Assembly: GCF_001186125.1 (NCBI RefSeq)
Contig: NW_014040433.1
Span: 18,521 to 82,520, forward strand
Source: Sphaeroforma arctica JP610
Taxonomy: Eukaryota
Length of the DNA: 64,000 nucleotides
Direction: 5' to 3'
Part shown: in pieces, positions 21,641 to 64,000 of the stretch
Layout of the letters: each line of letters starts with the position of its first letter
How positions within the stretch are numbered: the stretch's first letter is position 1
Notes under the pieces: generated by a model
Database searches by the model: none
Told to the model about the DNA's origin: nothing
What the model saw: the letters and a program-made list of their open reading frames with translations, nothing else
Translations under genes and position numbers: made by a program

Positions 21641-21779
21641 CTTTTCCGCCTGAGAAACATTAACTATACGTTATGCTACTTAATGTTTTCGACCCGTTTT
21701 TCCTTTCTCGCTTTTTGACCCATAATCAGCTTGAGTGAGCAACTTGCTTCTCCTGGGTCTCAAAGCTGGGTGGGGGCTG

Positions 21780-22540
21780 TGTAAGCCGGGCCTCCACATT
21801 AGACTATGTTATAAACGTACTCTTAAGCAGTACGTAAACTATAAACGTACTCTTAATAGTACAAGGAACTTGAGTTTCCTGAATGGGTTTTAACGGTTTT
21901 ATTAATTAATACATTTTCCATTTTGCATATCAGATATTTGGACAAGGCCATTAAAAGGCCCCAGTAAAATACAAACATATGATTTGGTCTAGTTCTATTA
22001 TTAGAACTATATTTACTTTCCAAATATATTTATATCTGAATACTTCGGTAGCGAGATGGCTCAACCGAATATAGGTTTCTAGGGACTATTAGCGTTACCT
22101 AGTTTAACCTCAGTTCAGCCAACCAGATATGCCAGTCTGATGAAGGCTAAATCGGTAATTCTTGATAAGTGGCAAGTTATTGGTTAATGCACTAACTATG
22201 GACATCAAGAGTTTTTTCTTTTTTTTCTATTCTTTTTTTCTAAAGATAGGATTTTATGAGTCTCTCGGATTCGCCCCAACGAAACATACCATAGTTTCTA
22301 ATAGAGCGACACCGAAACATTAAATAAAATCCCTTGGCGAAACCAGTACTGAGAGGATTATAAATAGGCAATGTCTCAGCCTCACAATCCCTCAGAGTAT
22401 TACTGATTTGACGAGGCATACCTAACTTTACTAAAAGACTCATTTCGATTATTTACTTCGAATTTCACGATACTTAGACTTAACCTACACGTTTAATTAC
22501 TCTAAGGCGTTAATATCGCCTTGATAGACCGAATCTCACA
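21780..22540 (+). repeat. 3' LTR of element A
   Basis: Follows the PPT; TGTAAG...CTCACA; matches the 5' LTR. Confidence 0.93.
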
Positions 22541-26141: not shown

Positions 26142-29100
26142 CAAACATACCGGGTCTTGTCACTAAGACAAAAGGACGCACCTCAAGACGATCGTGTAAT
26201 TCTTGACATACGAGTTAACGGACATGAAATAAAAGCGATGTTAGATCCGGGCTCGCAAATTTCATGTATGTCTTTTAGATTCTGTAAAATGACAGACGTA
26301 ACTCGTAAGTCAGAGCCAACTATGTTGCAACTGGCTGATGAAAGAGAGATCACTTGCAGAGAAATGGCAATCGGTCTTAGGTTTACATTGACAGACCAAC
26401 GTACTATAGTTACTAAGGCAGTCATATGTAACACTTTACCAGACTATGATCTCATAGTAGGTATGAGTGATTTATTGTCATTAGGTATCCCAATTACAGG
26501 CTTACCTACTAACATTGAACCACAGAAGGATCAGTCGGCCGACAACTTGTTGAAACCGGTATATAAACCTTCGAAGACTGTGAAGGAGATGACCCCTCAC
26601 TTCACAGAGAAACTCAAGAACTTGATTTTCGAAAACGACAAGATTCAGATCACTGACTGGACTAAGTTCAAATTCAATAACGGATACGTTAGTCTAAACC
26701 TGACGAGAGTAGATTTCTCGAAGTTGAAGTGTCCTACACGTAACTATGTTGCATGGCGTCATGAGCAGGTCATACGAGAACAGGTTAAAGCATGGTTAGA
26801 TGACGGAGTGATCGCAGTCAACTACGAGCCGACTCCCGTCAACCTAGCGCTTTTAGCCGTCGACCAATTCAACTCTGACGGGATGCTGAAGAAAGTTCGG
26901 GTGTGTTTGGTAATGAGCCCGATTAACGCTTTGATACCGACACACAATTTTCATTTACCAAGGATAAACGAACAACTCAGGCGCATGGAGGGAGCTAAGA
27001 TATTCTCCACTATCGACCTGAAGGAGGGCTACCACCAGATGAAGATCTACAAACCATACCGGAAGTATTTCACCTTTACCTGGGAGGGTCAGCAATATTC
27101 GTTCAAAGGTACCCCCTGTGGGTTACACATGTTATCTGCGTTCTTTCAGCAAATTATGCAAGAGTTGTTTAGGGATATGGACAATGTACAAGTATACATT
27201 GATGACATTGTGGTATTCACCAAAACCAAAGAGGAGCGCGAAAGGGTTGTGAGAGAGGTTCTAGACAAACTCAACAAGCACAACTTCAAGGTCAACAGTA
27301 AGAAATGTCACTTCGGTGTTAACGAGATTCAGCTGTTGGGTTACCGAGTATCCGGGGATGGAATCATGATCGATCCCGGGAAGGTCGACCACTTGCTAGG
27401 CTGGAGAACTCCTACCACGGGTAAGGATGTCAACAGCATGTGCGGATTCGTCAACTTTTTGTCTGACGGAGTACCACACCTGGCAAGTTATTAAAAGCCC
27501 TTTGGACATCTGAGATGTCATAAAGGCAAACTAGGCGCACTGTGGACCAAAGACTGTGATGACGCATTCAAGCAGCTCAAAACAGTGGTACAGCAAGCAC
27601 CAGTAGGCGGCGTCTTGTATCAAATGATTGATGGGAAACCAAGATATGTACAGTTCTTTAGCAGGGCTATGAATTCGTCTTAGACCAATTACCAACCGTG
27701 CTACAAGAGCTTTTGGCTATTGTTACTGCACTCACTCATTTTAAGGACTATCTATATGGCACGCACTTTAACGTGCTATGAGATCAGATGTCATTGCAAC
27801 ACCTAAAGGACATGAAACCTAACTCACAGTTAGTCAGTCGGTGGCATGACACGATCGCGAAATTTTCTTTCGGCATAACACACATACCGGGTATTCACAA
27901 TCACCTACCCGACATGTTGTCTCGCTTCGTACCAGACTTTTAACAAGATGGTTAGGGAGTTACTAGCTACAGATTGGATGGCCAATCCTAGGTGGTTTAA
28001 GATCGCTGACAATATATATGGACCACATACCATAGATATGTTTGCCGCTCATCATAATGCGCAACTGCCGAGGTACCAGACACTGGAACATCCGGAAGGA
28101 GACGGATTCCAGATAGACTTGTCTCACGAGAATGCCTGTTCAAATCCTCCATGGCTATTAATACTACAGTTGGTAAATTATGTAAATATTCAAGATGCTA
28201 CCATCACGTTATGTTGTCCCCTAAGACACTCAGATAAATGACTACCACAGTTGATCTCAATGATACAATGTGAGCCGATCTATGTGTATAGAGAGGTAGA
28301 TACTTTTCTCTACCAGGGTACCCGTGCAGTCCAAAAGACGCCTTGGCGACATACTATAATATGTCGAATAGGTCCAGTTGGAACAACCAAGTGGACACCA
28401 TCCGAGACTTTCAAACAGAAGGTTGAGAAATCCAAGATTCCACTCTTGAATCCGAAGTCTCAATCAGAGACTGGGACAACACTAGCACTTGCAGTATGTG
28501 TTACCGAGATACAGCCAAATTCAAAGGAATCAAAGAGGAGCGCAACACTAGCGAAAGCCTTCTACAAAAAGATATGGTCTGCCAGGGAAACTGCACACCG
28601 AGCAGAAACTCGATTGCTTAAGCAATTGATGAATGACTTTTCTGAGGTATATGATCATGTGACTCAACTAATGGACAGATCAAACATTAGTCGGATTCAC
28701 GATGTAGAAGCTTTAGGCGAGATTGGACAAGACGAGTCTTCGAGTCCAGGTGATGACGCGGTGGAATCCTCACCTCCTGATTTCAATGTAACAAGTAGAT
28801 CACAGGAGGCGATTCTGAAGTGGTTAAGACAAAATCATGCTCTTAAGCACATGGATAAGGTTAGAACTGAGAAAGATTGCAAGAGGTACGGAATCGTACA
28901 CCCGAACCTCAAGCAATATATATCTCAGGTGTATCACGAATGTAACAACTGCGAAGTTAACCGGATCAAGCGCTACGGGTACGCACCTTTACGCAGCGTA
29001 TCAGAAGACGAGCCGTGGCGCCGGGATATCATTGATTTGGTTGAGCTACCCACGTCCGAATACACGAAGGATAAATATGTCTGTCACGTGTTTGATGTCG

Positions 29101-30228
29101 CATCAAGATATAATATATTATATCCGCTGAAAGATAAATCGACACAAACTGTGGCTGAGTGCATATATAAGTGCTTCGCAGATTTCGGCTGGCCAGCTAT
29201 TGTATGTTCCGACAACGGTTGTGAGTTTACAGGAGATGTCATGACGACACTGTTACTCGTTGCGGGATCAAGCCATAAGATGGGTGTACCTTACAAGCCT
29301 CAGACACAAGGTGCGAACGAGGTACGACACAGAAAAATGAAGGAGTTCATGTGAGGAGCACTACTTGATGATGCTGACATGTGGTCATACTCAATCATTT
29401 GGGTACAGACACAGATGAACGAATCTCTTGATTCAGTCACTGATACAACACCAGCTCACTATTTCCGGGGCCGTTATAGTGAATTACAGATCCCCTTATA
29501 ACAAGGAGTCTCAAGATGATCATGTGTTACCATGCTTAGAAAAGATGCGTCGGACCAGAGATGTGGTTTATCCTTGCTTAAGGGAGATGAAGGACATCGC
29601 TCTCAATATGAGACAAAAGCGGCGGAATGATACCAAGAAAATAGACGAGTTTGAGGTAGGCGATATAGTCAACATTATGGCTCGCAACTTCGATACAACT
29701 GTGCTTACGGCTAAATATATTGGACCATTTATGATCTCTGTGGCCGATAAGAAGAGCGGAACGTATGAATTTAACAACGTTGACGGCTCTATAAATACCG
29801 GGTCACATCGAATCCCTACGACACAGATAATCCTTCGTCGCACACGTGAAGCTACTACACCTCTTATGTCTTACGAGTTTAAGAAGATTTTAAGGAAGTA
29901 CAAACATGAGGATATGACATATTACACTGCGGAGTTCGACGATGGAGCACAGTTTGATCTTCCACCATCAGCATTTGATGATCCGGATGTACTAAAGGCT
30001 TTTAATAAGAAGTTTCGCAAACGCTTACACAAAAATAAGGCTGATGTAGAAACAATCTTACCATCGAATAAGCGACCCGAAGTGGTTAAGATCTATCCAC
30101 AGACATCATACATTCCCAGCTTTAAACAGCATAGAATGTACGTACCTCCAATAGGCATTAAGAAACGTCCCATCCACCATCGGGGACCACAAGGACCAAA
30201 GCCCAAACGTAATAGAGTAGCCGAGTAA
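26142..30228 (+). pseudogene. pol: pol of element B (PR, RT, RNase H with the TDAS segment deleted near 27603, MTase-like domain, integrase, GPF, chromodomain-like)
   Basis: MLDPGS; IDLKEGYHQ; VYIDD; NPPW; HALKH..CNNC; IIDL, SDNGCEF, QGANE; KYIGPF; YEFKKILRK. Confidence 0.92.
27972..28380 (+). other. N6-adenine DNA methyltransferase-like domain in pol of B
   Basis: TDWMANPRWF..YGPHTIDMFAAHHNAQL..DGF..NACSNPPW (28143-28154)..CCPLRHSDK* (W codon changed to stop). Confidence 0.87.
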
Positions 30229-30412
30229 CTTATAACGTCTATGTATACTTTGTCTAAGAGAATATAACATAAGCATTGAGGCTGTTATATGATCGAAACC
30301 CGTTTCTTTTCTTTCCGCTTTTACAATTCATGTGAGCTTTTTGAGTCTATGTGCTAATACCACGTATAAGCCAATATTGTAATTTTCAAGCTGAGGGGGG
30401 GGGGGGGGGCTA

Positions 30413-40266: not shown

Positions 40267-43200
40267 TTGTACAAATTACTAGCAAAGACAAAGCGGGTGA
40301 AGCGCGCATTCGCACAGAATATAGCACGAGTCGCTACTAATAACCTGAAATACCCACACATCAACACATATATCTCAAGATGCCAACGGCAACCAGAGCA
40401 GGCGTGTATGGTCGTGAAGAGGGTGGCGCTGGCGCGGACGATGCGGGTGACAGCCCAGCAGGGGGGACAAACCCAGGCAGTAGCTCAAGCCAACCAACAC
40501 CGGGGGAGGGGCACCCATACAAGCTTCAGCAATGCGTTTACAAATAGACAAAAGCATCTGTCAAGGCAACTATGTCCTGGTGAGTAGGTTTGTAGCCAAA
40601 TTGGAACAAACAGCACCGATATCTATCGAGTCTACACAAGGTGAGAGTAGGCATAGACGATCAACAGCCAGAACGACGCATGCCAATCGTCGATGCATAA
40701 CTCACAGAAGAAGATACGATTTAGCTATCAATGAGTGTGGTGATGACGAGGAGGACGAACTAATACAAATCAGTCAGTGCATCAGTGAGTTATAACTCAT
40801 GCGTTCACGCTTAGGCGATAGGATCAATGAACCTACACTTTAACTACTAAAAACCTCAGGATTTTCCGAAGTTACCCCGAGACAGTTATTTCAAAACGAA
40901 AAAATGTGGAGATATTATAGAGTTTACTACGCGATGCAGAGATCTATTCTTAGCCAAGTCTGTGTCATCATGTTCGTACCCAGCGCGCGAGATATCTATT
41001 AGACTCCATTGATACAACGGAGACGACCAAGGGGGTGCCCAATGAGTTACGATACTCTGAAACACAGATGACCAAGCACTACAAGGACCCTGAACAATTG
41101 AATAGAATCATTATTGTCAGCCTCAGACACCATCCAGTAGAGAATCTGTTAGAGAAGTTTCTCAATGACATGCAGAATAAGACATTGAACGTGGAGGTGC
41201 ACACAGAGCGATTGCATCGAACAATGCAAGTGTTAGAAGAGTGTTACCGCAACTCGGACAAAGAGACTATACACACGCAAAATCCTCAAGATCAGGCACT
41301 TACGTACTACGGACAACAGAAGAAAGTGGACGTCATCATCAAAGCAGACAAACTGCCTGATGAAAGTGAAGGTCACTTATCCGATATGAAACACACCACG
41401 TTTTACTCTCCTACTGAAGCAATCATAAGAGTAGCGGCTAAAGTACAGGCAGAGCGTTTGTACAGAGAGCGTAAGAAACGCAACTCGCAGCCAGTCACAC
41501 GCAGCCAGTCTCAGAACGGCACAACCACTGCGACCAAACCTGAAACGTCACAAACCAGAGAAAGGCGCACCGAAACAAACCAAGCCAATAGGACAAACTC
41601 AAGAGAAGTGAGAGGCGCGCGAAGAGCGTGCATGTCCTTATTGTAAGGTGATGCCAGTCCCACATCGTTCCAGTCTATGTCTCATGAAGGCATCGAATCA
41701 GACCAAACAGGCTGGGGAGCGTGTCAAGAACGATGTGCAACTAGCAAGACTGTCCATCACCTCCGGAAAGGTAGAAGACATCACAGATGGCGATGAGTCC
41801 TGCAACAACTGGTGGGAGGAAGCAAACATGATTGACCTGGCTGACAGGCTTAATGTACATACAGATGAAGAAATGTTGTTAATACATGCATATGATATAA
41901 ATTACCAACCTTTATCCTTACTTCCCGCACCACGAGACCAACGCTTGCACTTTGACACGTACAAAATGGCAACACATACAATGCACTAGTAGACTCTGGC
42001 GCGCAGAGCTGATGTATGGACAAGAGTATATTAACTGAAGTGTATCTCTCTGTCAGAGCGCAACCGGGCTACATATAACTACCACAAACAGATGCAAGAA
42101 TACAAAGAACAAGGTCAATCCAAGTGTGTAGAAGTATTGAATCTATCAGACCAGAAGGCACCAATACTTCTAGGTATGGACATTTTACCCTACATAGGCG
42201 TATCCATAGCGGGATTAATAAATCCACTTATACCAACAGATGCAAAACGAAAATTACTACTCACTCCACATGAGGAAGACCCAAAGCATGAACAAAAAGG
42301 CTTCAGATAATCACTGTCAGATATCCTAGACACTAATGTGAACATACCTCCTGATGTACATTGCAACCTACCAGGCTCTACAGTCACAGTACCTGCAAAT
42401 GAAATCAATGTCAGACAAATGAGGCATGCCAAAGTCAACTTTGTACCCCATAAGTATATTCCGCAAACGGATGAAAACATGAAAAGGTGGCTTACAGATG
42501 GTCACATATACAAACGAACTACACCAACAACAGTGAATCTACCATTGTTATCAACAGGTGAACATGACCAAACAGGTGTCCTTAAGAAAGTAAGAACATG
42601 TTTAAACTCACTTGAGATCAATTACCAACATGGACAAGATAAATTCGTGCTACCAAAAATAAAAGAAGTACTACACAACCTACAAGGAGTACAATTCTTC
42701 TCAAAGTTAGTTCTCACGGGAGGGTTCCATCACTTCCTAGTAGATGAAGCAAGCCAACACTTCTTCATGTTCTCGTGGAGAGGAGCGCAATACGCATTCA
42801 TGTCAGCGCTGTTTGGCCTACACTCACTCACAGCACAATTCCAAAGAGTCATGGCAAACTTGCTCACAAACATCAAATGTGTGCAAGTGTATGTAGATGA
42901 CATAGTAATTGTAAGTCTTACAGAAGATGAACACCGCAAGACAGTTCTCGAAGTAATCAAACGGTTGAATGGAGCAAACTTCCGACTCAACCACTACAAA
43001 TATGCCTTCGCGGTCAAAGTGGTCAATATTCTAGGTGTGAAAGTCACCACAAATGACCTATAGCTGATCCTGAAAAAAAGAAACGAATGATGGACTGGCC
43101 ACTATCCAGAACGAAAAGAGATCTGCACAAAGCGGTGGGACTAGCAAATTATATGCGCGACCATATTTCCAACTTTGCCCACACAACTTAACACTTCAGG

Positions 43201-44720
43201 AACCTAATGAAAGGGAAAATAAACCAGAATATATTCATGCTATGGACACCGGAACTCAAAAAGAAGTGGGAAGAACTCAAAGAAGCCATCGCGTGTTCGG
43301 CGACACTAGCATACCCTGTTGATGGGGTACCGTTTCAAACCATGAACGATGCTAGTGACTATGGAATAGGAGGATGTTTATTTCAAGTCATCGATAGAGT
43401 CAGGAGAGATATTTTCTACTTTTCCAAAGGCTTGAATCCACCACAACAACGCTTCGGCACAAACACTAAAGAGCTACTAGCACTGGCATACAGCCTAGAA
43501 CATTTCTCCGAATATATCAAAGGAGGGGACATAACACTGTGGACAGATCATAAAGCGCTCACGCAAATGAACAGCCAACAGACGTTACACCCAATGCTAA
43601 CTAAATGGATAGCTAAAACATTACACCACCACTTCTCCATCAAACATGTCCCAGGCAAGGACGACCAGATGGCAGACATGATGTCGTGTCTATACGAAGA
43701 CATATTTACTACTAAAAAGTCAGAGGTACTGCATAACGCGAACAAAACAACACACAACAGCCGAGAGTGCACCACCTTGGAAACTAACATGCCCATAACC
43801 ATTATAGCTATAGACTGGATGTTACACCCCAGATTCTACAAATAAACTGAAAGACGATTTGAGAAATTCACAGTAGATCTGTTTGCATCAGTACTATACC
43901 AAAAACCAGAATGCGCTCCTGCAGAAGTGGGCGCAGGTATTGAATGCATGGGCAAACCCACCGTGGAAACTCATACTTGAGATCCTTGACAAAGTCATTA
44001 AAGAGGCAACCAGCATCACGAGATGTGTACCATAATATCCCAATGCAACGTGGTTTCCAAAATTATTGTCTTTACTAGAAGAAGACTCGATGCTAGTGGA
44101 AAACACAAACAATAAGTTCCTCAACGAATGTGGCAAGACCCCATGTGGCGTCTCATCAGTAGCAAAGATAGGAGTGAAGTCTCCATAATTTGCCTCAACG
44201 CGGGAACAACCTGCCATACACGCTTCAGCATCACAACCAGTTTACTCTGGAGAGGCACCGCATGAAACAGAATACGAGACACGTGTTCACGCCATCGAGC
44301 AATACCACAACTTGGGACATTATAACCCTGAGGAAACGGTAAAAAAGTTGCAAGCAGATGGACACGATTGGCCACAAATTCAACAACATGTACACAAGTA
44401 CAATGAAGATTGCGTACCATGTCTCAAAAATAAGATACACGAAAAGGAATTCCATCCCTTACAATCAATCACAGCCGCATTTACAGGGGACAGAGTCCAA
44501 GTGAACACCATTGGGCCACTACTGAACTCAAACAGAGGACACACAATGTGTTAGTATGGCTAGATGTGCATCCATCATATGTCATACTCAGACCAATGAT
44601 GAACAAATCAGCGGCGACTATAGCACGGACGCTGGTACATATCATATGTAAACATGGGTTTCCGCAAATCATACAGACCGACCAAGGCACTGAATATGTT
44701 AATGACAAGTTTAACCTTCT
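40267..44720 (+). mobile_element. Degenerate, 3'-truncated Ty3/gypsy element C (distinct family): gag-PR-RT-RH-MTase-IN. An A-rich leader may extend upstream to ~37 kb
   Basis: ALVDSGA (~41983), VYVDD, NDASDYGIGG, TDHKAL, VDLFAS, NPPW, HNLGH..CVPC, TDQGTEY; stops abruptly within the integrase. Confidence 0.88.
43813..44170 (+). other. N6-adenine DNA methyltransferase-like domain in pol of C
   Basis: DWMLHPRFYK*TERRFEKFTVDLFAS..(frameshift)..NAWANPPW (43955-43966) KLILEILDKV..CVP*YPNATWFP. Confidence 0.85.
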
Positions 44721-47392
44721 GGAACTTTGGCATTGTGACATATTTATGATGACACTCAACAGCTCTGTGATTTGTATTATTGATCAGTGAAAAATATTGA
44801 TTTGATATGGCTGACAAACATTGTCCCTAAAACCCTTTTGAAGCTAAGCAGCAGTTGTATCTGTTGTTAAACTGATTCACGGCAGCGTGCATATTTTTTT
44901 CAATTTAAGCCAGGGCCGACGGTAGGTGCATGAAAATATGCAGTGGTTTACTGTAAGCGGCTCTATCGTTGAAACGTTTCAAACAACATTTCCTTTCGAC
45001 ATATGTACCGTACACCTGGTCAATTAAACTGCCAATGGCGTGAATTTTTTCCCTATACGTTGACTATCTTGTACTATTTTAAATGCTTTGACCACTCTTG
45101 TGCGAATGACACCTCTGGTGGGCGAGTTATTAGACTCCACACATAATGAAAGGATTTCTTCTGTTGATATTTCTTAGCCTAATTTGAACGCGAGACCTTC
45201 TATCAGCTTTGCAGGTATCAGTGTGTTGGGGTCACAACAACCCTTACAAATAAACGGCTCACCTTTGCCTCGAGGGCTTGATGCTTAGAATTATTCGCCT
45301 TAAGGATATATTCCATCTCATCACGGGTAAGGTGCTTGAAATTTGCACTGGATGATAAGAATTCATTGGACGATATCTGAGTCGGATTTTGCGCTTGTGT
45401 AAAGGTATGTACTAGAATAAATATTATTTCTAGAAGCAGCGGTTTTCGTGCAAATTATCGTACATACGTGCCCATGATAGGTGATTCTGTAAACACTCCG
45501 AAGCATTATTTGTCTATCCATCTGAAGCTGACAGCGACATTTTGTGCCGCTACTGTCAATGATAATACATATGTGTATTACATGACGTGTCGGACTCTAC
45601 GCTCTCACCCCGAGTTTTTCAGTGAATTNNNNNNNNNNNNNNNNNNNNTATATTTCGACAGACTCACTCACACTCAATGTAGACGCATGCTTTGATATCC
45701 GCAGTTTTTCGTTGATAGTTTGTATTTGATGGCACTCGAGGTAGATAGAGATTCAGCTGTATTCCATGTCGAAAGCGTTACAATGGGGATAAAATACTGG
45801 ATCGTGTACATTACTATCTCTACTGCAGACGAAACGCCTGCCGTGTCACTCCCAAACTCTGCGACGCATTAAATCATCGGGTGTGGTCCGGAACTCACCC
45901 TCTGATCCGCCCGAATGTACACTATCTGTCAAATATATACATCTTCTGATTACAAGCGCGGCTGAATTAAAAAATAAACTAGAAATTCTGATTTATGCAA
46001 TACGGGGCCTCGTATGATAAATGTTTATGAATTTACTTGAGTGATGGGTTACACGTAATGCAGATAGGTACGGATATGATGTCTGCTCATCAGTTTGTAT
46101 CTAATCTCAGTTAATGGTGTACTTTTTTCAACAACACTGGTGCAACATAGGTAGGGTCACTAATAGCTTTTGTTTGAATATGAACACTTATTTAAAAGAA
46201 AGAATGCTCATCAGTACTGAAAAACAAAAAATGACGAGATTAGTTCTAGGTCATCATTTATCTAATGATAGTAGTATTAGAGCCGGCAGATGGGCTGCAT
46301 CAGAGCTAAGTGATGCTCAGCATTAATATGCGGTTCTGGACGTCTATATTCTCAGTTCTCTAATCGTGCTGGATATGGAACACTTAGTTCGCACTTTGAT
46401 TGTTGCAGATAGAAAGAGACGTATGGATTCCTATTTGTTTTCAAGCACAGACATGTGTGCAGAGAGATAAATATGTATTAGCACGGAAGACATTTCATGT
46501 TATATATGCTTTTGCTGTTGGTAAGAAAACTGCGTGGGTCTAGGTGACGGGCAAACACAAAGCCATAGGCGTTCGTATCACAAATATGAACATACTGCAT
46601 GAAGTACTGTAAATTGAAGATACAACTTATACTGTAAACGTCGGTCAAACGCGACAGTACTAACGGCTCAACGCGTAATGTTGTGAGACGTCCAACAGCT
46701 CCGGCAATATAACTTCAGAGGATCTTGTTGATGTTGAATAGGAAAACCTTTTCCTCTGACAACGTAGTAAGCCATTGCGTTGTATTTTGAAGAAAATTGG
46801 TTGCTTGTCGGGTTCTAGATCAAAATCTGGCCTTTTCACGATATAACCCGTGTGTTATATAATTCCTTTTTGGTTGTGTCGTGTCGCGCCACCTCTCAGA
46901 GACAACGTCTCCTTTCTGACGTGACCATACCGAGACGACCACCAAGGTAAGGAGCCTCGCGCAAAGTAATTTACGCGTACCATATTTACACAAAATCTAG
47001 TGCGCATATTTTTACTTCGCGCAGTATGATAGGTGAGGCGTATACACATAAAAATCAAGTAAACATATAAACAAAATGATTGGTGAGAGGCGTACAGGCA
47101 CGGGCTCTATAAATTGCTATACAAAATCCATTCGCATTCATTTCGTAAACATTTTAAATGTCTGTCGTTTTAAATACATGATTACCTTGAGAACAAGAGG
47201 TGACAAGAAAATAGAGACTTATGCTTTCAGAACCTGGCAACACGGAAACGTAGGGGCATTACTATAAGTCTTTGAATTGAAGTAAGTGAGAAAGTGGTAG
47301 GTTGACAAAGTTAGAAATTAGCCAAGGATAGTAGCAATAGAGCCGGTAGATGGGCTGCACCAGAGCTGACTGATGCTCAGCTTTTATATACG

Positions 47393-47645
47393 TGTTACGA
47401 CAAAATCAACATTGTACTTGATATTTCAGATACACTCACAGTTCGGTACCAACAATGGTACACAAACTTGAACATAAAGCTGTCATTGTGTCAGTTACAA
47501 GAACGAATGTCAGCTCAGCAATTAATTAGGTTTATACTACACATACGTGCGACACACATGACTAGGTAACGGATATAGCCTTCAGTAGAGGGATAAATAA
47601 AATCACTCTATACATGATATAATTGTTCGAACAGATTATGGGCCT
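47393..47645 (+). repeat. Possible short copia-type LTR (TGTT...AACA) followed by PBS-like GATTATGGGCC
   Basis: Terminal TGTT/AACA and a copia-type PBS; no second copy in the window. Confidence 0.35.
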
Positions 47646-48029
47646 ACTTAGATTACCAGACTACAATAGTGTCTAAGAAACTCATTTGTACAAAACATAA
47701 ACCACACATTACCGCACTCGACAAACACTCTTACAGGTCTACCGTACATTACACAACATAACTTTATTTGAAGTGTTTGATCTTCCCAAGAGCTTCGAGT
47801 TCTACGAGGAAGCTCTTGCCTTTGGCACCACCCACTGGGCAGACTGTGGAGACGAATTTATAAGACTCAAACCCTAAAAACCCTATACGGCCCAAAATAT
47901 ATTACGGCTCATATTTTGGCCGAATAATTGCAATAATATCTTAAAAGGGCACGTGGTAATTATTATACTATATACCCAATATGTAATATGATAATAAACT
48001 TACTTCTTTAGCAAATATATGTTCCAACA

Positions 48030-51000
48030 GTTATGGGCCTATATCGAATATATTTATTTTTATATACCTTATATACATCGCTTAGATTTCCACCCGAACT
48101 TCTCCCTTCTGATCTCCCACCCTTGATCCTTTGATTGACACTCTGATCTTCTGATCGACATTCTGATCTCTGATTCCCTCTCGCCAGTCCCCTGATTCAC
48201 TATCGCCATGCGACTCCCTCCACCCACGGGCCAAATCCCCGTCACTACACTCTCCTCCTTCGATGGAGCCCAACGCTTCCAACTCGATTTCTTCCCAACA
48301 CTTCAGCCAGACAACAATATCTCCCACGCCAACAACCACATTCAACTTGTCCGCACCATTATCTCTGCCGTTCTTGACACAAACGACAACCCTCACGTCA
48401 ACAACACCGCCATCTACTTAGGTGCACAACTTGATGCAATCACTGCTATCACCGACCTCAACAACTATCACAAAGCCGCCACCGATGCACAAGCTGTCCT
48501 TACCCGTATTCGACATGACCGCGCCACGTTATCCGCCGAGCTTGATACCATCCGCGTCGAATCCGCTACACAAGCTGCATCCATTGCTACTCTTAATGCT
48601 GACCTTGCTCGCATACGTCACGAACGACGCACAATTCTCACTGAACGTAACACTGCCAATACCGCTCGCGATTTAGCCCTCTATAGAACAGACTTCACTC
48701 GCCACTGATCTCGATTGCATCCGCAACAAACGAGGCACACTCATCACTGAACGTGACCAGTTTACATCTGATTTTCATCGCATTCGCACTAAACGTGAAC
48801 AGGTGCAATCCGACTGTTATGCCATAGCTGCACTGAACGTGAACAGGCGCAATTCGACTGTCATGCCATAGCTCTCGAACGTGATACCCTTCATCGCGAT
48901 CTCACACGTACACAAGACATCAACGCCAACGCAACCACAGAACACACCGCTCTACAAAATGATCTCCCACGCTTCCGCCATGAGCGTGACTTATACCTCG
49001 AGGAGCGCGAAGAGGCCCGTTTCGAACAAATCCAAGCCCAAGAACAGTCTACTGCCTCCCCTGATGCTTACATCCAAACCGCTCACACTGCCCTCCGCAA
49101 AGCCCATGCCCTCGCTGAAGCCGACAATCAACGCTTGCGCACCGATCGCGACGCACCCCGTGCAAGCCTCACCCAACAGCAGCACGAACATTCCCAACTC
49201 TTACAGGAAGCACTCGCAGAGAACGAAGACCTCACCACTGCCGCCACTCAGCTCCACGACGAAACAACTCCAGGTTGCTCAGAGCAAGATTCGCAAGCTC
49301 GAACAACGCATCCCATCCGCCGCACCTCGGTCTCACCCAGCTTCCCCACTCCTAATACCGAACATCCCTAACAGTCGTGCCACCACTGGCAAAGCTCTTA
49401 AATATTCGAGCAACAACCCGGCTACGAAGCTTACCGAGGACTACAATTTCCCCAATTGGCATCGTCAACTCATACACATCCTTAAGTATGGCGTTCTCCA
49501 CACTCTTCAACCTGCCTCCACTGCCGACTACTCCGAGAAAACCGTCGGCACCACCTTCTTATTCAAGTCACTCGGCAGCGGCCTCCCAGAACAGTATGGC
49601 ACCTACCTCGACCAAGACCCTCATGTATTCTATCGCCGCCTTTGCAACGACGTCAACTCCATCACTATCGGTCGTATATGGGAGCTTCTTGTCCAACTTG
49701 TAACCCTCCCCAAGCAACCATTCCTCGACGACAGCATCGCCAAAGTCCACCTACTTCGCGACCAACTCAAAGGCCTCCATGCCGACACTCCTGAGTTCTA
49801 TCACATCTGCAGTCTACTTCAACCCCTCCATGACGGCTTTGACATCGTTGCCCAAGACGTCATGGGTGCTACCGACCACACATACACCCCGCTATCGTCA
49901 CTAAGATGAGCAATTATGCTACCAACAGCAAAACCATTCTCAGCATCAGCAGCAACTATGCCGTCGCCAGTGTCTCATACCACACTCCTTCCACGCCCCC
50001 AATCCCCGACCCCGCCGCGTTTCACTTGGTAAAGACCCTTCAGGCAACTGCTTTGCACGGCAGAAGCCCGGTCACGGCGCATATCCGCTGCTGGGACTCG
50101 TCTCACACTGGCTCACAATGCACTCTCCCTGGCCTCCCCAAGTGTACCAACTGCCGCAACTTCACCGGTCACACCACCATTGCATATCGCCGTACCTGAA
50201 GCCACGGGGTTCCTCACGTAGCCACATGCCCACCTCCAGTTCCTCCCCCTCCCGATCCACCCCTTGAACCGGTGTAGTACCATGTGAACACGCTTATCAT
50301 CCGTGCAGAACCCAATCACTAATCTGTCATTGCTACAGCTCTCATCGACTCTGGCGCCGACATCTTTATTGTCACTTTCGCTGGCTCACTCTCTGATATC
50401 GAACACGGCCGCTTCGACATTGAGCTTGCCGGCGGCTCTCTCAACACCGCCTCCACTCGCGGTACTCTCCCCGGCCTCAGACCTGCCCTCATCCTCCCTG
50501 GCGCCAGTCACCCTATCCTACACGTCCGCCTCCAGTTCCTCCCTCTCCTGATCTACCCCTTGGACCGGTGCATTACCATGTGAACATGCTTATCCTCCGT
50601 GCAGAACTCAATCACCAATCCGTCATCGCTACAGCTCTCATCGACTCTGGCGCCGACATCTATATTGTCACTTTCGCCGACTCACTCTCTGATATCACGG
50701 CCGCTACGACATTGAGCTCGCCGGCGGCTCTCTCGTCACCGCCTCCACTCGTGGTACTCTCCCCGCCCTCGGTCCTGCCGTTATCCTACCTGACACCATT
50801 CAGCCTATCCTCTCCGTACGTAACATGCAGCGCAACGGTTACACCATCTTCTTTTCCGAAACCCTTACCCCCGATGGCCTTGCCCAATGCCTCATCACAC
50901 GCAATGGCTCCATCGTTACCATCATCGACGAATCTGTCGGGCGCTACCATCTGAATACCTCCCAAGCGAACAGCCTCAACCTCCATCATGCCCGCTTTGG

Positions 51001-52430
51001 CCATCAATCCATCCGTACGACTAAAGGCATTGCCCACACCCACAATATCCCCATCCCTCCTCCTCTTACTGCGACGACTATCAACTCCACCCCACACTTT
51101 TCGATACTCACGTCCCCTAGGTCTTTGGTCCCGTTGACATCGACATGTTCGCTACTCAACACAACCACCAAGTCCCCATCTACTACACCCTTGACCACAC
51201 CGATAAGACGACTCCTCTTCACGACGCGTACAAGCAGAACTGACGCCAGCCTACCAAGCGCCTCTACGGCAACCTCCCCTGGAAAGACTTCCCACGGGCC
51301 GCATGATCTGGCTGTTTCCTGTCAAACCTAAAGCTGCTTGGTGGCCCACTCTCATGTCTCATCTTCAGTCGCACGTCGAATTTATCCCCTCTTTTCCGCA
51401 CACGTTTCTCCGCCGCCAACTAGACGGCACCCAAGACTTTGTCATCACTCCCAACTGGCTCTCTACGGGTGTCGCTATCTTCGGTCCTCAGGCTCATGCC
51501 GTCCCCATCCCTGCAGCTCTCCAGACCGCCATCGACGTCAGTCTCTTCCACACCGCCCCCCCCCCGCATGCTCTTGCATCGCATGTGTCCTTAGAAAAAT
51601 ACACAAGTTTTCCGTCAGCAATAAGTCCCGCACCTTCCCTGACATCGGCGCCGAATGGCAGGTCGATCTTGAAGACAAAGTTGAGCAGGGCTACGGTGGT
51701 CATGCATACACTATCCGCTTCTTTGAACGCTGCACCGGCCTTGAATATCAGGAACACCTGCGCGACAAAAGCGACGCTCACCTCGTCCTAGACCATTTCT
51801 ACACATACATTAAAGTACAGGGTCGCGATCGTCTTTGCACCATCATTGCCAACCGTGGTGGTAATTTTTTTTGCCACCGAATTCAAACGCGTCAATCACC
51901 TCGCCCATGTGCAGATACTCTTCAACCCTACGAGTGACTCCGCCAAACACGGTGGTGTCAAACGCGTGTACCAGACCAACATGAACATTACACTCTGTAT
52001 GGTCGTCCAGGCTCTCCAACCCTCCCACATATAGGCTGAGGCCAAATCCCATGCCTCCCACATCTGCAACATCTCCCCCCGTGCCTCCAACCCCAAGCGT
52101 CTCAGCCCTTACGCAGTCTTCTTTGGTCGCCCCGTTACTGCCATCGTCAAAGCACTTTGCGTATAAGGTTGTATGACCCTTAGCCATGACCACGGCAACA
52201 CAGACAAGCTCCGTCCCAAATGCCGTGTTGACATCCTCATCACACATAACCCCTTCTCTACGCATGCCGACGAATATCGCATGCTTAACGTCGACGCTGG
52301 ATACACCAGACCTGTCGACACGTCCAATTCAACGAGGTCATCTTCCCCTTATGGCACAACGTCGACTCCAAGTCCAAGCCTTACTTTACACCGGAACAGC
52401 CCTCCGTCATTGACACATATCCGACGTGGT
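48030..52430 (+). mobile_element. Degenerate, 3'-truncated Ty1/copia-like element D: PBS-gag-PR(x2)-[ZnF split by MTase]-IN; RT/RH absent
   Basis: AACA|GTTATGGGCC PBS; gag KLTEDYNFPNW and knuckle remnants; ALIDSGA protease followed directly by HHARFGH...CIAC and the integrase core (WQVDL, ANRGGNF, HGGVKR, SPY..FFG). Confidence 0.8.
51073..51490 (+). other. N6-adenine DNA methyltransferase-like domain in copia-like element D
   Basis: Manual translation DDYQLHPTLFDTHVP*VFGPVDIDMFATQHNHQV..DAY..LYGNLPW (51271-51282), then IWLFPVKPKAAWWP..TFL..TPNW..IFGP. Confidence 0.8.
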
Positions 52431-53099
52431 CGAACTTGACCTTAGCATTTGGCAAGGCTCTTACACAGCACGCACAGGCAGCTCAGAAAGCTGCTGCTGA
52501 TAAGAATCGCTTAGACGTCCCATCGTTTCGTGTCGGTCAGCAGGTAATGTATGCAGCGTCGCATACAACCCCTCCCCCCCCCTTTCCTAAAAATAAAAAT
52601 ATCGTAAATACAAAAAAGCTAAAAGTTTTAAAAATGCCGCAGTTCTTTTTACACGATAACTCATAAAAAAAAAGAACAGGATATATTTGGAAAAACTATG
52701 CAGGGAGCAATAGAGATTTGAACATGTTCGATTTTAGTCTTTGTGAATTTGTTTTTGAAAAATATATATAAATAAGTAAATATGGATAGATATCTAGAAA
52801 TGTACCATCAGAAAGTTGTCAGTTGAAATATTAGACAGATGAAGTGATGAACTCTGAGGACTGGGAGTCTGAGTTTCTGGGAAGTTAAATGCTGACCTAA
52901 GTTGAATTTTAAGATTTTGAATTCGCTATAGGAATAAACTTTGTAGTTTTATTTTAAAAGATTGTCCTTGCCATTTTGTAAACTTGTATTTAATTGATTA
53001 TGGGCTGGCTAATAATGTAGATACGAAATAAACCTCAAACCTTGGCAAAATGATATAAGCTATATAGTGGTTTCATTGGTTGTAAAAATTGACATTTTA

Positions 53100-60061: not shown

Positions 60062-60629
60062 CTTTGAAGGATAAATTATCATGATAGTATTGTTGTGAAA
60101 GGTTATTATATATGTGTATATAAAAATACATGTTATTTAAGCTTATGAATAGTAAATAATAAAGTATTTATTGTGTCGTTAGAATTCTTTTGGGCCATGG
60201 TGCATTTTAAGACCTGAAGTTCAGGTGACTGTGGCATCTTCGATTGTGATCAACTATTTTTTTGTGTGCCGCTCATTGCTTTATTCGGGGAACAGGATAG
60301 GCCTATTCAGCATATTAGCAGCAGTCGAAGTGGTAGAAAAAACAGTAGAGGGCGTACTTCTCCTTCTGTTGAACAAGCGAGGCATCCATGGGAAGAAAAT
60401 GCACAAACTTCCAGTGCACTGCAGGCGTAGAGGGCCTTCTAAAAACCAAGTGAACAGTTTACGGGGAGATATGTTGTCCCGACTTGTATGGCGCACTAGG
60501 CGTAGGCGTGAAGCGCGTCCCGATTGATGAGCGAATCATTCATAGATAACTCTGAATTACATCAATTTCCGATAGTAGAGGGTCTTTTAATAAACAAGTT
60601 TTTGAGATATATTGCCCCAACTGCACTGG

Positions 60630-61350
60630 GATAACGTTTGCTGTAAACGTTGTTTGTGTAGTTGTACTGTTATATAATTTGCTGTAAACGTTGTTTGTCT
60701 AGTTGCACTGTAATGCCATTTGCTGTAGACGTTGTTTGTCTAGTTGTACTGTAGTGACATTTGCTGTAAACGTTGTTTGTCTAGTTGCACTGTAATGGCA
60801 TTTGCTGTAAACCTTGTTTGTTTAGTTGCACTGTAATGACATTTGCTGTAAACGTTGTTTGTCTAGTTGCACTGTAATAACATTTGCTGTAAACGTTGTT
60901 TGTCTAGTTGCACTGTAGTGACATTTGCTGTAAACGTTGTTTGTCTAGATGTACTGTTATAAAATTTGCTGTAAGCGTTGTTTGTCTAGTTACTGTAATG
61001 ACAACTGCTGTAAACATTGTTTGTCTAGTTGTACTGTAATAACATTTGCTATAAACGTTGTTTGTCTAGTTGCACTGTAGTGACATTTGCTGTAAACGTT
61101 GTTTGTCTAGATGTACTGTTATAAAATTTGCTGTAAACGTTCGTTGTCTAGTTGCACTGTAATAACATTTGCTGTAAACATTGTTTGTCTAGTTACTGTA
61201 ATGACAATTGCTGTAAACATTGTTTGTCTAGTTGTACTGTAATAACATTTGCTGTAAACGTTGTTTGTTGTGTTGCACTGTTATAACATTTTCTGTAAAC
61301 AGTGTTTGTCTAGTTGCATTGTTGTAACATTTGCTGTGAACGTTGTTTAT
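60630..61350. repeat. Minisatellite, ~41-bp unit (tttgctgtaaacgttgtttgtctagttgcactgtaatgaca), roughly 17 copies
   Basis: Directly visible head-to-tail imperfect copies. Confidence 0.95.
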
Positions 61351-61620
61351 TAACGTTTGCTGCCTATCTGTCAGTTTTATTAGTGTGATATGCCATAAAA
61401 ACCGGAGTGAAAAACCACAAGGCTGCTGATCTAGATCGTAAAGCAAGCGTTTCGTATTTGAAAGAACCAGCGCGGCGACCAATAGTGGCCAGTTGGATCA
61501 GCGCGAATTGATATCCGCATATCCATCTTTATAATCAAAATCCATGTATACTTCTCGATAATCAATATCCATATATACTTCTCCGTCTAAATCTGTACAG
61601 ACATCGTATCTAATTCTAAT

Positions 61621-62553
61621 TTATATGCGTTTCTTCCCGTCTTTCAGATCCGTTCCACCCCGATTTGCACACCCCACAGCAGTAGGCGTGGGCGTAAGGA
61701 ATATACTCATCAGGGGCAGACCACAACTCAAACATACAATGAGATTGTGCTGTAGCTCTTTACCAATGAACGCTTCCCGGAACAGGACCACAGGCAGATA
61801 TTTGATCACGGCCAAGCCTAAGGGGCCAGCAACGATCGTGCCAAGCATGATGTGGTTCCCATTGACGAGATCGGAAGCGTACAGTGTGTAGATCCCATAC
61901 AGAGCGAAGGGCAAGTTTAACATAGCACTACTCGCCACACCAGGAACATACCGCAGGTAGTACACTGATGGAATGATGTGCAGGAAGAGAGCACCACTGG
62001 CTAAAAAGATTAAGTTGAATAGCAGTGCAATAGAGCGACGTGACGTGGGGAGTACGAAAGAGAGTGGCAGCAGCATCATAAGGCTCCACTCGTAGATGTT
62101 TTCCCACAGTATAGTCTCAAGATCATACGGACATGTACCAGACATGATGTAGACGTACTTCACGGTGGGGTGCTCCACTATCGCCGCTTCACAATCAAAG
62201 ATCTTCTCTGATAGGAATTGCACATACGCATGCCTCTCCTTGTGCAGCAGATCAAAACCATACGACTCGACACATCTGAGTCCTACCATTGCACTGCAAA
62301 ATAGACACAGCCATGTCAGCCATTCGCGCGCATCATGGGTCAACTTGACGTACGGCGGGGCTAGCATGAATGGGATCCCAGCTATTAAGAAACCACCAAT
62401 GAAGAGAGCCCAGGTGCTCGTTAGAAAACGGTAGCCGTACGATGATTGATCCAAGCCTCCTGAGAAGATCGGAATGAATTGCAAACAATGAATATCAAGG
62501 ATTGGGAAAATCGAATAGTCATTTCCGTCGTCTGGAAAGTATGTCACATGCAT
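61621..62553 (-). CDS. Intronless multi-pass membrane protein resembling the HXXEE family, with a degenerate signature
   Basis: 310-aa ORF with ~7 hydrophobic segments; LRCVESYGFDL at the expected HxxEExGxDL position and YVPGVASS..LNLP matching the YNPG motif. Confidence 0.65.
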   Translation of the reverse strand: MHVTYFPDDGNDYSIFPILDIHCLQFIPIFSGGLDQSSYGYRFLTSTWALFIGGFLIAGIPFMLAPPYVKLTHDAREWLTWLCLFCSAMVGLRCVESYGFDLLHKERHAYVQFLSEKIFDCEAAIVEHPTVKYVYIMSGTCPYDLETILWENIYEWSLMMLLPLSFVLPTSRRSIALLFNLIFLASGALFLHIIPSVYYLRYVPGVASSAMLNLPFALYGIYTLYASDLVNGNHIMLGTIVAGPLGLAVIKYLPVVLFREAFIGKELQHNLIVCLSCGLPLMSIFLTPTPTAVGCANRGGTDLKDGKKRI

Positions 62554-63606
62554 TGGGATATAAACATATAAACATATATATATATATATATATATAGGTT
62601 TAGTACCTAGTATATATATATATATATAGTATTACGTACTGTATATATATATATATATATAATATACTATATATATATATATATATATATAGCGGGTTCT
62701 TAGATCTATACACCCGGTCGCAATTTCGTGTACATGAACGTTGAAAAACATTTTACAAATATGTATCTCCTTCTTGAAAGTTTACTTGGGCTTCCGTAAA
62801 TACATACCTCCATGTAGTACCCCTCCGACGAGACTCCAAGCCAGGAGTACACCCACTAGCGGTAAATATACAGCCTTGGTCAGCATTCTGGCCGGTATAT
62901 CAGGTGCCTTCGGATTAGCATCGTATCCACCTAACGACGACATCGTGTATGGAGTAATGAGCGCTAGTACGTGACCGGATCAAATTTGAAGTGCACTTTT
63001 TGAATTTCCCCCATTTTGGTGAAAATGGCAAAAAATATGACACGAGCGAGAAAGGTAAAAAGTAAAAACAACCCTTGTACAAACCGAAAGACCTACAGCT
63101 GTGGATTGCAATGCGATATTAAATAAATTTAACACAAGTCGTGTAAAAGGGTTTTAGTACACAGGTTTGTTGAACGTGTTTATTGGTAACCAGTACCCAT
63201 GTGATCGAGCTATTTTCATATACGTGTAAAGAACAGTTTTTTTTTTTTGCGTTCTCATAATTGAGGTGTTGCTACTAATCTATCACAGAGAGAAAAGATT
63301 TAGCACTTCATGCTCCTACTGTTTTTTGTGTGGGCACATTTCTTATGTCCTTGAATAAAACCGTCTCGCTTGTGATGAGCTGACTTGATATCACCTTAGA
63401 TCCTCAAGAGTATTATATGCTTACGACGGAGCACTCAAATATTGCACGACCTGCTTCATGGTCTACGAGCACTGGTATCGGTATTAGACACGTGCAGCAT
63501 TGGTTCGTTCCTGTATGTTCTCTCGATACTACACTATGTGTTCCAGCCTCCAAAAATATCTCTTACTAGATGAGTCGAATTATTACCAGCCTAAAGTATG
63601 ATACAC

Positions 63607-64000
63607 TCACGACAAAGCACTCAAATAGTGCACGACCTGCTCCATGGACCAGCGAATATTTGGGTCGGGGTCACACATATTTAGCAGTAGTTCTTGAATG
63701 TCTCCGTCGATACTACACCAGGTGTCCCAGTCACCAAATGTGTCTCTCCGTAGATAATGCAGATAACCAATATCGGTCTCATGTGCGAACTGGAAGGGCA
63801 GCCTTGAGGTAGACATTGAATACATGGTAATGCCCAACGCCCAAACATCAGACTTATACAAATCGAAATGCCAGTTGTATATGTTTACTCTGCTTCGCGC
63901 AGTGTGTGTCGCGCTTACTATTTCTGGTGCTAAATACGTGATCGTACCACACTGTAGTATTTCTACCGGGAGTTCTGCAACTTGGCTTTCGCCCAGGTCT
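63607..64000 (-). CDS. Ser/Thr protein kinase, C-terminal lobe (5' part lies outside the window)
   Basis: DLG..CGTITYLAPE..KSDVWALG..LPF..DPNIR (subdomains VII-XI). Confidence 0.9.
   Translation of the reverse strand, partial: DLGESQVAELPVEILQCGTITYLAPEIVSATHTARSRVNIYNWHFDLYKSDVWALGITMYSMSTSRLPFQFAHETDIGYLHYLRRDTFGDWDTWCSIDGDIQELLLNMCDPDPNIRWSMEQVVHYLSALS

What the first reader, a model, noticed from the sequence alone, without database searches (positions are those of the whole stretch)
50984..51586. Copia-like element with the methyltransferase inserted inside the integrase HH-CC zinc finger
Seen: HHARFGH (50984-51004) and its partner CIAC (51575-51586), normally a few tens of residues apart in the copia pre-integrase finger, are separated by ~190 codons. 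The gap holds the MTase module (IDMFATQHN, GNLPW), flanked by Pro-rich linkers. The ORF track misses it because of frameshifts near 51071 and 51300. The insertion site differs from the RH-IN junction used by gypsy elements A-C, so an independent capture is inferred. It would keep the MTase covalently attached to mature integrase, i.e. on the pre-integration complex. The copia assignment rests on PR-IN order, PBS and gag motif, since RT is missing.
Basis: partly seen in the sequence, partly recalled or inferred. Interest (0 to 1): 0.88.

Follow-up and report, generated by a model that had tools for sequence, protein, structure and literature searches.

The report
Methyltransferase splits a retrotransposon's integrase finger
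A broken, likely copia-type jumping gene in what is likely a single-celled relative of animals carries an adenine DNA-methyltransferase domain between the two halves of its integrase zinc finger, a layout shared by its sister copies, which would put the enzyme on the machinery that pastes new copies into the genome.

Summary
The HH motif (50984-51004) and the CxxC motif (51575-51586) lie exactly 190 codons apart, and a Dam-family methyltransferase (about 51076-51490) fills the gap: 40 bits against an independent profile, matched by 0 of 444 reported shuffles. Contigs of diverged sister copies bridge both junctions, none skips the domain, and each frameshift is absent from at least one other copy. 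So this is a family architecture, not a one-off chimera. Copia identity is likely (protease-integrase order, anticodon-loop primer site, copia-type integrase look-alikes, no match to the local gypsy integrases) but unproven: this copy ends near 52568 with no RT, and no intact copy was found. Dam-carrying LTR elements of ichthyosporeans are known from a May 2026 preprint, but only as gypsy elements; its main text never mentions copia, and my searches found no Dam inside an integrase finger. The scan noted a gypsy-Dam element earlier on other DNA, not this layout. The Dam belongs to the eukaryotic retroelement family, not the phage one. The donor (DIRS or gypsy) is unresolved, so 'independent capture' is shown only for the insertion site. 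Activity and folding are untested. New variant of a known kind; interest 0.64.

The parts
47845..48029 (+). Putative 5' LTR (TGT...CA); no matching 3' LTR in the window
   Evidence: Sequence; high summed contig depth and loose ends at both borders; self-BLAST finds no second copy
48030..48039 (+). Primer-binding site complementary to the anticodon-loop region of tRNA-iMet (copia/Ty5 type)
   Evidence: Sequence; other copies carry one more G; the motif occurs in a human tRNA-iMet antisense oligo in PMC1797187; anticodon-loop priming described for Ty5 and copia in PMC10886601
48208..50220 (+). Gag-like region, frameshifted: coiled-coil-like repeats, gag core, Cys/His knuckle-like motifs
   Evidence: ORFs; Pfam Retrotran_gag_4 (Ty5 gag) E 0.26, below cut-off
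50284..50960 (+). Aspartic protease (DSG at 50347-50355 and 50643-50651), doubled by a 296-bp tandem duplication (50224-50519 / 50520-50811)
   Evidence: Pfam Asp_protease E 0.04
50984..51004 (+). HH half of the integrase N-terminal zinc finger (GAG-pre-integrase type)
   Evidence: Sequence; Pfam PF13976 positions 18-43 of 67, E 0.13
51005..51075 (+). First linker (about 24 codons, Pro-rich); frame break near 51060-51070
   Evidence: 4 extra bases in 2 X15 contigs and 1 X16 contig
51076..51490 (+). Dam-family (PF05869-like) N6-adenine methyltransferase domain, broken in this copy (two stops, a deletion at 51296, NLPW in place of NPPW)
   Evidence: Profile scores with shuffles; Pfam E 0.04; sister-copy differences
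51491..51574 (+). Second linker (about 29 codons, Pro/Ala-rich); frame break in the C-run 51556-51565
   Evidence: loose ends of other copies at 51553
51575..51586 (+). CxxC half of the integrase zinc finger
   Evidence: Sequence; directly precedes the integrase core
51587..52340 (+). Integrase core and C-terminal part, copia-like, with frame breaks and stops; second and third catalytic positions look replaced (by eye)
   Evidence: Atlas look-alikes with rve and gag_pre-integrs, scores 0.90-0.94, recognition 4167; no match to a gypsy integrase profile; motifs read by eye against recalled copia patterns
52341..52568 (+). Post-integrase segment, possibly SH3-like; the window copy ends near 52568 while other copies continue
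   Evidence: Loose end at 52568; Atlas leads below 0.9; gypsy C-terminal profile not significant

Best explanation
This is a decayed, truncated copy of a small multi-copy LTR retrotransposon family, likely of the copia superfamily, whose pol gene carries a retroelement-type Dam adenine methyltransferase between the HH and CC halves of the integrase zinc finger; in working copies the domain was likely read in frame and would loop out on two linkers while the finger still closes on zinc. Shown: the order PR, HH, Dam, CC, integrase core; its presence in several diverged copies; each frame break being absent from some other copy; and an excess of synonymous differences in the Dam stretch. Inferred: protease releases an integrase-Dam fusion that rides on the new cDNA in the particle and pre-integration complex, and would mark the cDNA or its insertion site with 6mA, which in ichthyosporeans marks transcribed chromatin, so that new insertions are more likely expressed (the model the 2026 preprint proposes for gypsy DAM-LTRs). 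The domain was likely moved in by recombination from a DIRS or gypsy DAM element in the same host lineage. The window copy itself is dead.
For: Dam match with shuffle controls. Contigs 45 letters different over 271 bases (X15 record 1, X16 record 10) and X16 record 9 run from HH into Dam; X15 record 2 also crosses the first junction; joints 51553-51623 and 51553-51871 and loose ends at 51553 link Dam to the CxxC/integrase side; the only joint listed on 50900-51700 does not skip the domain. Frame breaks absent in other copies: 4 extra bases near 51060-66, 28 extra bases at 51296, a different length at the C-run; both stops are read otherwise in most or all of the depth. 15 of 31 displayed differences in Dam are synonymous against 21-27% expected (p about 0.009). 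Copia signs: PR before IN, anticodon-loop primer site, Atlas rve and gag_pre-integrs look-alikes, no hit of a gypsy integrase profile built from 8 DAM-gypsy proteins. Retroelement family, not phage: equal-size profiles score 34 (DIRS-like), 34 (gypsy), 11 (phage) bits. Host inferred as Sphaeroforma-like: element C's Dam is 79% identical to SARC_00333. 6mA enrichment of DAM-LTRs in S. arctica is reported in the preprint.
Against: No intact copy seen: X16 record 9 lacks the first correction and has its own 8- and 1-base deletions, and the two-contig X15 loose-end consensus at 51553 (agreement 0.82) shows a stop just before CxxC. No RT-RH seen. Pfam hits for gag, protease and the HH half are all below cut-off, and an exhaustive HMMER search with the integrase N-half found no integrase among its 4 hits, all repeat proteins. 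The synonymous count uses only 40 of 107 displayed differences, and the four runs show the same contigs, so they are not independent. Enzyme activity is doubtful for the whole family: the preprint's E. coli assays were negative, and PMC4738411 calls DIRS1 MTases likely inactive. The segment after the integrase has weak gypsy/retroviral SH3 look-alikes.
Confidence: 0.66

Rival explanations
1. The domain is kept but catalytically dead: it serves as a nucleic-acid-binding or tethering module on integrase (for example, steering insertion toward 6mA-marked chromatin or binding template RNA), not as a methylase.
For: Negative E. coli assays for DIRS and LTR DAMs; PMC4738411 argues DIRS1 MTases are likely inactive; the window copy reads NLPW; a position on integrase resembles that of targeting domains such as chromodomains (recalled).
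Against: The D-x-F-A and NPPW-type motifs are kept across the family; DAM-LTR insertions are more often 6mA-marked; the Leu may be private decay, like the stops.
Confidence: 0.25
2. The element is not a true copia but a hybrid or non-autonomous PR-IN element, with pieces taken from the host's DAM-gypsy elements (Dam, perhaps the SH3-like tail), mobilised in trans.
For: No RT in the window copy; Atlas leads of 0.84-0.86 to MLVIN_C and SH3_Tf2-1 for the tail; a nested position of D in the gypsy Dam clade is not rejected (p-AU 0.15, 0.17).
Against: The tail did not score against a gypsy C-terminal profile (319 of 968 shuffles as high); the gypsy integrase profile does not match; other copies continue past 52568; copia-type primer site.
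Confidence: 0.15
3. The Dam stretch is a passenger: a fragment that landed in the finger of one copy, killed it, and was then multiplied passively (segmental duplication or trans-mobilisation).
For: No intact copy seen; all copies seen are decayed or only partly covered.
Against: The insert is one complete domain with a linker on each side and a frame that continues in other copies; synonymous excess; copies differ by about 17% yet share it.
Confidence: 0.08
4. Protease cleaves in both Pro-rich linkers, so Dam is a free particle protein and the HH piece is either lost or held only through zinc; the insertion site is then incidental.
For: Linkers of 24-29 residues could hold cleavage sites (inference).
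Against: Cutting there would split the integrase N-terminal domain, which is needed for integration in retroviral-type integrases (recalled); HH and CC are both conserved.
Confidence: 0.12

Closest known systems
Ichthyosporean DAM-LTR lineage (Fernandez-Moreno et al., bioRxiv 10.64898/2026.05.21.726589; whole main text read, figures and supplements not seen)
   Same: Same Dam family in an LTR retrotransposon pol gene, likely the same host lineage; window elements A-C are of this kind (Dam at the RH-IN junction; starred clade with SARC_00333 and Awhi_evm1s15067).
   Different: Described only as Ty3/Gypsy, classified through RVT_1; 0 hits for copia, Ty1, RVT_2 or zinc in the main text. Element D has PR-IN order, a non-gypsy integrase, and Dam inside the integrase zinc finger.
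DIRS1-type tyrosine-recombinase retrotransposons with an MT/Dam domain (PMC4738411 and PMC5890265, passages)
   Same: Same methyltransferase family; D's best single match is an RT-RH-Dam protein, P0011 (46.7 bits against 31.9 for the best gypsy).
   Different: DIRS use a tyrosine recombinase and carry Dam after RNase H; D has a DDE-type integrase, an LTR and a tRNA primer site.
Ty1/copia superfamily, Ty5/Drosophila copia priming type (PMC10886601 and PMC5445492, passages)
   Same: PR-IN order, HHCC finger, TGT...CA LTR, anticodon-loop tRNA-iMet primer site.
   Different: About 190-200 codons with a whole enzyme between HH and CC instead of a few tens (normal spacing recalled); RT-RH not seen.
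DNMT-carrying retrotransposons (SymbioLINE/DIRS-Dnmt, KnitGypsy-Dnmt3; PMC5890265, passages)
   Same: Recurrent capture of a DNA methyltransferase into a retroelement.
   Different: Cytosine rather than adenine enzyme; the paper notes that Symbiodinium copia elements lack a DNMT.

Membership tests
Ty1/copia | pol order PR-IN-RT-RH | tested here: inconclusive
   PR directly before IN shown; RT-RH absent from this truncated copy; others continue past 52568 but only 30 letters were visible
Ty1/copia | RVT_2-type reverse transcriptase grouping with copia | not testable with these tools
   No genome held; no D-type protein or locus found
Ty1/copia | Copia-type integrase with GAG-pre-integrase (HHCC) domain | tested here: met
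   Atlas look-alikes with rve and gag_pre-integrs at 0.90-0.93; PF13976 E 0.13, below cut-off; gypsy profile negative. Moderate strength.
Ty1/copia | LTR TG...CA followed by a tRNA primer site (anticodon-loop priming reported for copia lineages) | tested here: met
   one LTR only, target-site duplication not testable
Eukaryotic retroelement DAM family (PF05869-like) | Sequence similarity above phage Dam | tested here: met
   Equal-size profiles 34, 34 and 11 bits; shuffles
Eukaryotic retroelement DAM family (PF05869-like) | NPP(W/F/Y) catalytic motif | tested here: inconclusive
   Window reads NLPW; the position was not among the 40 of 107 differences displayed for other copies
Ichthyosporean gypsy DAM-LTR lineage | Ty3/Gypsy organisation with Dam between RNase H and integrase | tested here: not met
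   Order is PR-HH-Dam-CC-IN; gypsy integrase profile gives no domain hit
Ichthyosporean gypsy DAM-LTR lineage | Dam domain inside the gypsy Dam clade | tested here: inconclusive
   Outside the starred 12-row clade (100/99 and 97/99), on a long branch; AU does not reject sister or nested positions
DIRS | Tyrosine recombinase; Dam after RT-RH | tested here: not met
   DDE-type integrase look-alikes, LTR and primer site; no RT-RH before Dam

The most novel reading that the evidence does not exclude
A copia-superfamily retrotransposon has captured an adenine methyltransferase separately from the known gypsy DAM-LTRs and grafted it into the loop of its integrase zinc finger, making a methylase-integrase fusion that marks new insertions with the host's 'active' 6mA at the moment of integration. 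It would be the first Dam in copia and the first enzyme housed inside an integrase HHCC finger.
Probability: 0.4. Interest if true: 0.85.

Novelty: new variant of a known kind. Interest (0 to 1): 0.64.

Why it matters
The 2026 preprint argues that LTR elements repeatedly took up Dam enzymes to exploit 6mA-marked chromatin, but all its LTR cases are gypsy-like and its classification relies on RVT_1. A copia case would extend the convergence to a second LTR superfamily in the same host lineage, and suggests that some of the 46% 'orphan' DAMs in that study are copia-borne. The position is informative: an enzyme inside the integrase finger would be bound to the intasome, which makes 'when and where does the retroelement Dam act' testable, and it shows that the HHCC finger tolerates a whole-domain insertion.

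Tried and rejected
No whole genome was held. Searches for D-type relatives gave none: word search with the integrase N-half, 0 of 12 candidates; D-weighted Dam alignment, 2 hits of 349 candidates, both gypsy; exhaustive HMMER with the integrase N-half, 4 hits, all repeat proteins; metagenome scan, 1 locus of 102 stretches, a chance match in a phage-like contig; viral scans 0 of 7 and 0 of 80; prokaryote genomes 0 of 160; PDB sequence searches 0 hits. These blanks are weak evidence. The single-sequence fold of the integrase N-half had mean pLDDT 45 and was not used. The complex predictor was not available, so the HH + CC + zinc test was not run. No RNA holder was listed; no evidence either way on expression. 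The join of D with phage Dams (95/87) was flagged as long branches meeting and is rejected, since phage profiles score lowest. A gypsy-type tail after the integrase is not significant. The two LTR-like stretches at 47400-47633 and 47845-48029 do not align convincingly. Dinucleotide counts showed nothing clear. Rows left out of the second tree and the AU tests: 5 phage rows, P0036 and P0027. The C-terminal half of the integrase has no library or look-alike result as a read-through; its copia-like motifs are read by eye only.

Full report
Observation. The window is eukaryotic and repeat-rich. HHARFGH (50984-51004) and CIAC (51575-51586) are in one frame, 190 codons apart. Between them the Dam motifs lie in two other frames, with three frame breaks (near 51060-70, at 51296, and in the C-run 51556-65) and two stops. 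Against a profile of 27 DIRS-like Dam domains containing no window sequence, the N-half scores 40.3 bits (0 of 444 reported shuffles as high, out of 500 made) and the C-half 14.1 bits (0 of 458). Those proteins were found with an alignment that included D pieces, a mild circularity, but many carry Pfam Dam labels on their own. Pfam on the window pieces is weak: Dam E 0.04, gag_pre-integrs E 0.13 over the HH half, Asp_protease E 0.04, Ty5 gag E 0.26, all below cut-off.

Anatomy. An LTR-like stretch runs 47845-48029 (TGT...CA), followed at once by a primer site that occurs in a human tRNA-iMet antisense oligo (PMC1797187, one passage). Anticodon-loop priming is described for Ty5 and Drosophila copia and, in plants, only for some copia lineages (PMC10886601, passages). 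Then come a frameshifted gag, a protease doubled by a 296-bp tandem duplication, the split finger, and an integrase. The integrase N-half has Atlas look-alikes carrying rve and gag_pre-integrs (0.90-0.94, recognition 4167), while a profile of 8 DAM-gypsy integrases finds no domain in any of six frames. The copy ends near 52568 with no RT and no 3' LTR; another copy continues there. The tail before the break has only sub-0.9 leads to SH3-type integrase tails and fails a gypsy tail profile.

Family or accident. No genome was available, so I laid public contigs. On 50900-51700, 30 contigs of run X15 and 7 of X16 were laid; 15 of 38 pieces were displayed. Pieces with 45 differences in 271 bases (X15 record 1, X16 record 10), and X16 record 9, run from HH into Dam; X15 record 2 also crosses the first junction. 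On the other side, joints 51553-51623 and 51553-51871 and loose ends at 51553 that by eye encode CxxC tie Dam to the integrase. The single joint listed, and the 15 of 32 shown, do not skip the domain. Each break is absent somewhere: 4 extra bases near 51060-66 in 2 X15 contigs and 1 X16 contig, 28 extra bases at 51296 in 1 X16 contig, a different length at the C-run; the two stops are read otherwise in 448 of 448 and 451 of 563 depth units in X15. Of 40 displayed differences (107 in all), 31 lie in the Dam stretch and 15 are synonymous, against 21-27% expected (p about 0.009). Against: no displayed contig is intact throughout, record 9 has its own deletions, one loose-end consensus shows a stop before CxxC, NPPW could not be checked, and the runs show the same contigs, so independence comes from paralogous copies and not from runs. 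Copies under 80% alike, which might lack the insert, are invisible to this test.

Origin of the enzyme. The Dam search returned 36 proteins: gypsy polyproteins (including SARC_00333 of Sphaeroforma arctica, 79% identical to element C's Dam, and an Abeoforma model) and RT-Dam proteins of DIRS-like layout, whose recombinase I did not check. Five phage Dams were added. In a 45-row tree the 12 gypsy rows, with A-C, form a starred clade that excludes D; D is a long branch drawn to phage, with a long-branch warning. Without the 5 phage rows and 2 degraded rows, D stays outside, unresolved; AU tests reject neither a sister position (p 0.52) nor nesting (0.15, 0.17). Equal-size profiles score 34 (DIRS-like), 34 (gypsy) and 11 (phage) bits; the best single match is DIRS-like P0011. 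So D's enzyme belongs to the eukaryotic retroelement family; its donor is open. A separate insertion event is shown by the different site and host element; a separate source is not.

Mechanism. Shown: the architecture and its sharing among copies. Inferred: in working copies Dam was in frame; linkers of 24 and 29 residues can span far more than the width of a 140-residue domain, so the finger could still close; protease would cut upstream of HH as in other copia elements (recalled), leaving an integrase-Dam fusion on the cDNA, placed to add 6mA to the cDNA or the insertion site. The preprint reports more 6mA and expression at DAM-LTR insertions in S. arctica and Abeoforma but no activity in E. 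coli, and PMC4738411 (passages) holds DIRS MTases likely inactive, so a binding or tethering role is the main rival. Folding was not informative and the complex test was unavailable.

Prior knowledge. bioRxiv 10.64898/2026.05.21.726589 (whole main text) describes Dam in gypsy-like LTR elements, including an ichthyosporean lineage; copia, Ty1, RVT_2 and zinc do not occur in its main text. Its figures and supplements were not visible and could show this architecture. Paper searches for a copia Dam (listings only, apart from the papers named) showed none; most subscription papers are not covered. PMC5890265 and PMC5445492 were read as passages. The scan's index had no look-alike by sequence or place and one note on a gypsy-Dam element in another genome.

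Verdict. A real, family-wide architecture; likely copia; a new variant of the recently described DAM-LTR kind. Interest 0.64, limited by the lack of RT, of an intact copy and of any functional or structural test.

Noticed in passing
window:17500-21400, 26140-30230, 41000-44800 (+): Three decayed gypsy elements (A, B, C) with Dam at the RH-IN junction, members of the published ichthyosporean DAM-LTR lineage; A and B are about 67-70% identical in DNA. Four Dam-bearing elements in 64 kb.
   Followed up: partly
window:47400-47844: A second LTR-end-like sequence with a copia-type primer site (47634-47644), then about 200 bp and a purine-tract-like motif just before D's LTR: possibly a small non-autonomous copia-dependent element in tandem with D.
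   Followed up: partly
window:50224-50811: 296-bp tandem duplication doubling the protease active site (87.5% identical); another copy skips about 333 bases here.
   Followed up: partly
P0032 (JGI protein, 258 aa): Dam domain followed by a protease-like motif, i.e. Dam upstream of PR: a further possible insertion site. It shares a DYQLHP start with D but scores only 17.5 bits against it.
   Followed up: partly
P0007 (Logan protein, 1608 aa): DAM-gypsy polyprotein inside the ichthyosporean-type Dam clade with a weak chromodomain hit (E 3e-4, below cut-off); the preprint says this lineage lacks chromodomains. Source organism unknown.
   Followed up: no
window:6750-11610 (-): Decayed non-LTR (LINE-like) retrotransposon with RVT_1 (E 8e-15) and an upstream ORF1-like frame.
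   Followed up: partly
window:4310-6099 (+): Intron-containing alpha/beta hydrolase gene resembling homoserine O-acetyltransferase (Pfam Abhydrolase_1 E 1e-15; the finer name is recalled).
   Followed up: partly
window:14511-15276 and 21779-22540: 97% identical 767-bp direct repeats, likely the LTRs of gypsy element A.
   Followed up: no
window:54771-57620 (+); 61624-62631 (-); 63610-63999 (-): A signal-peptide, trypsin-like protease gene in exons (by eye), an HXXEE membrane protein and a protein kinase fragment; an 82-bp tandem array at 60622-61351.
   Followed up: no
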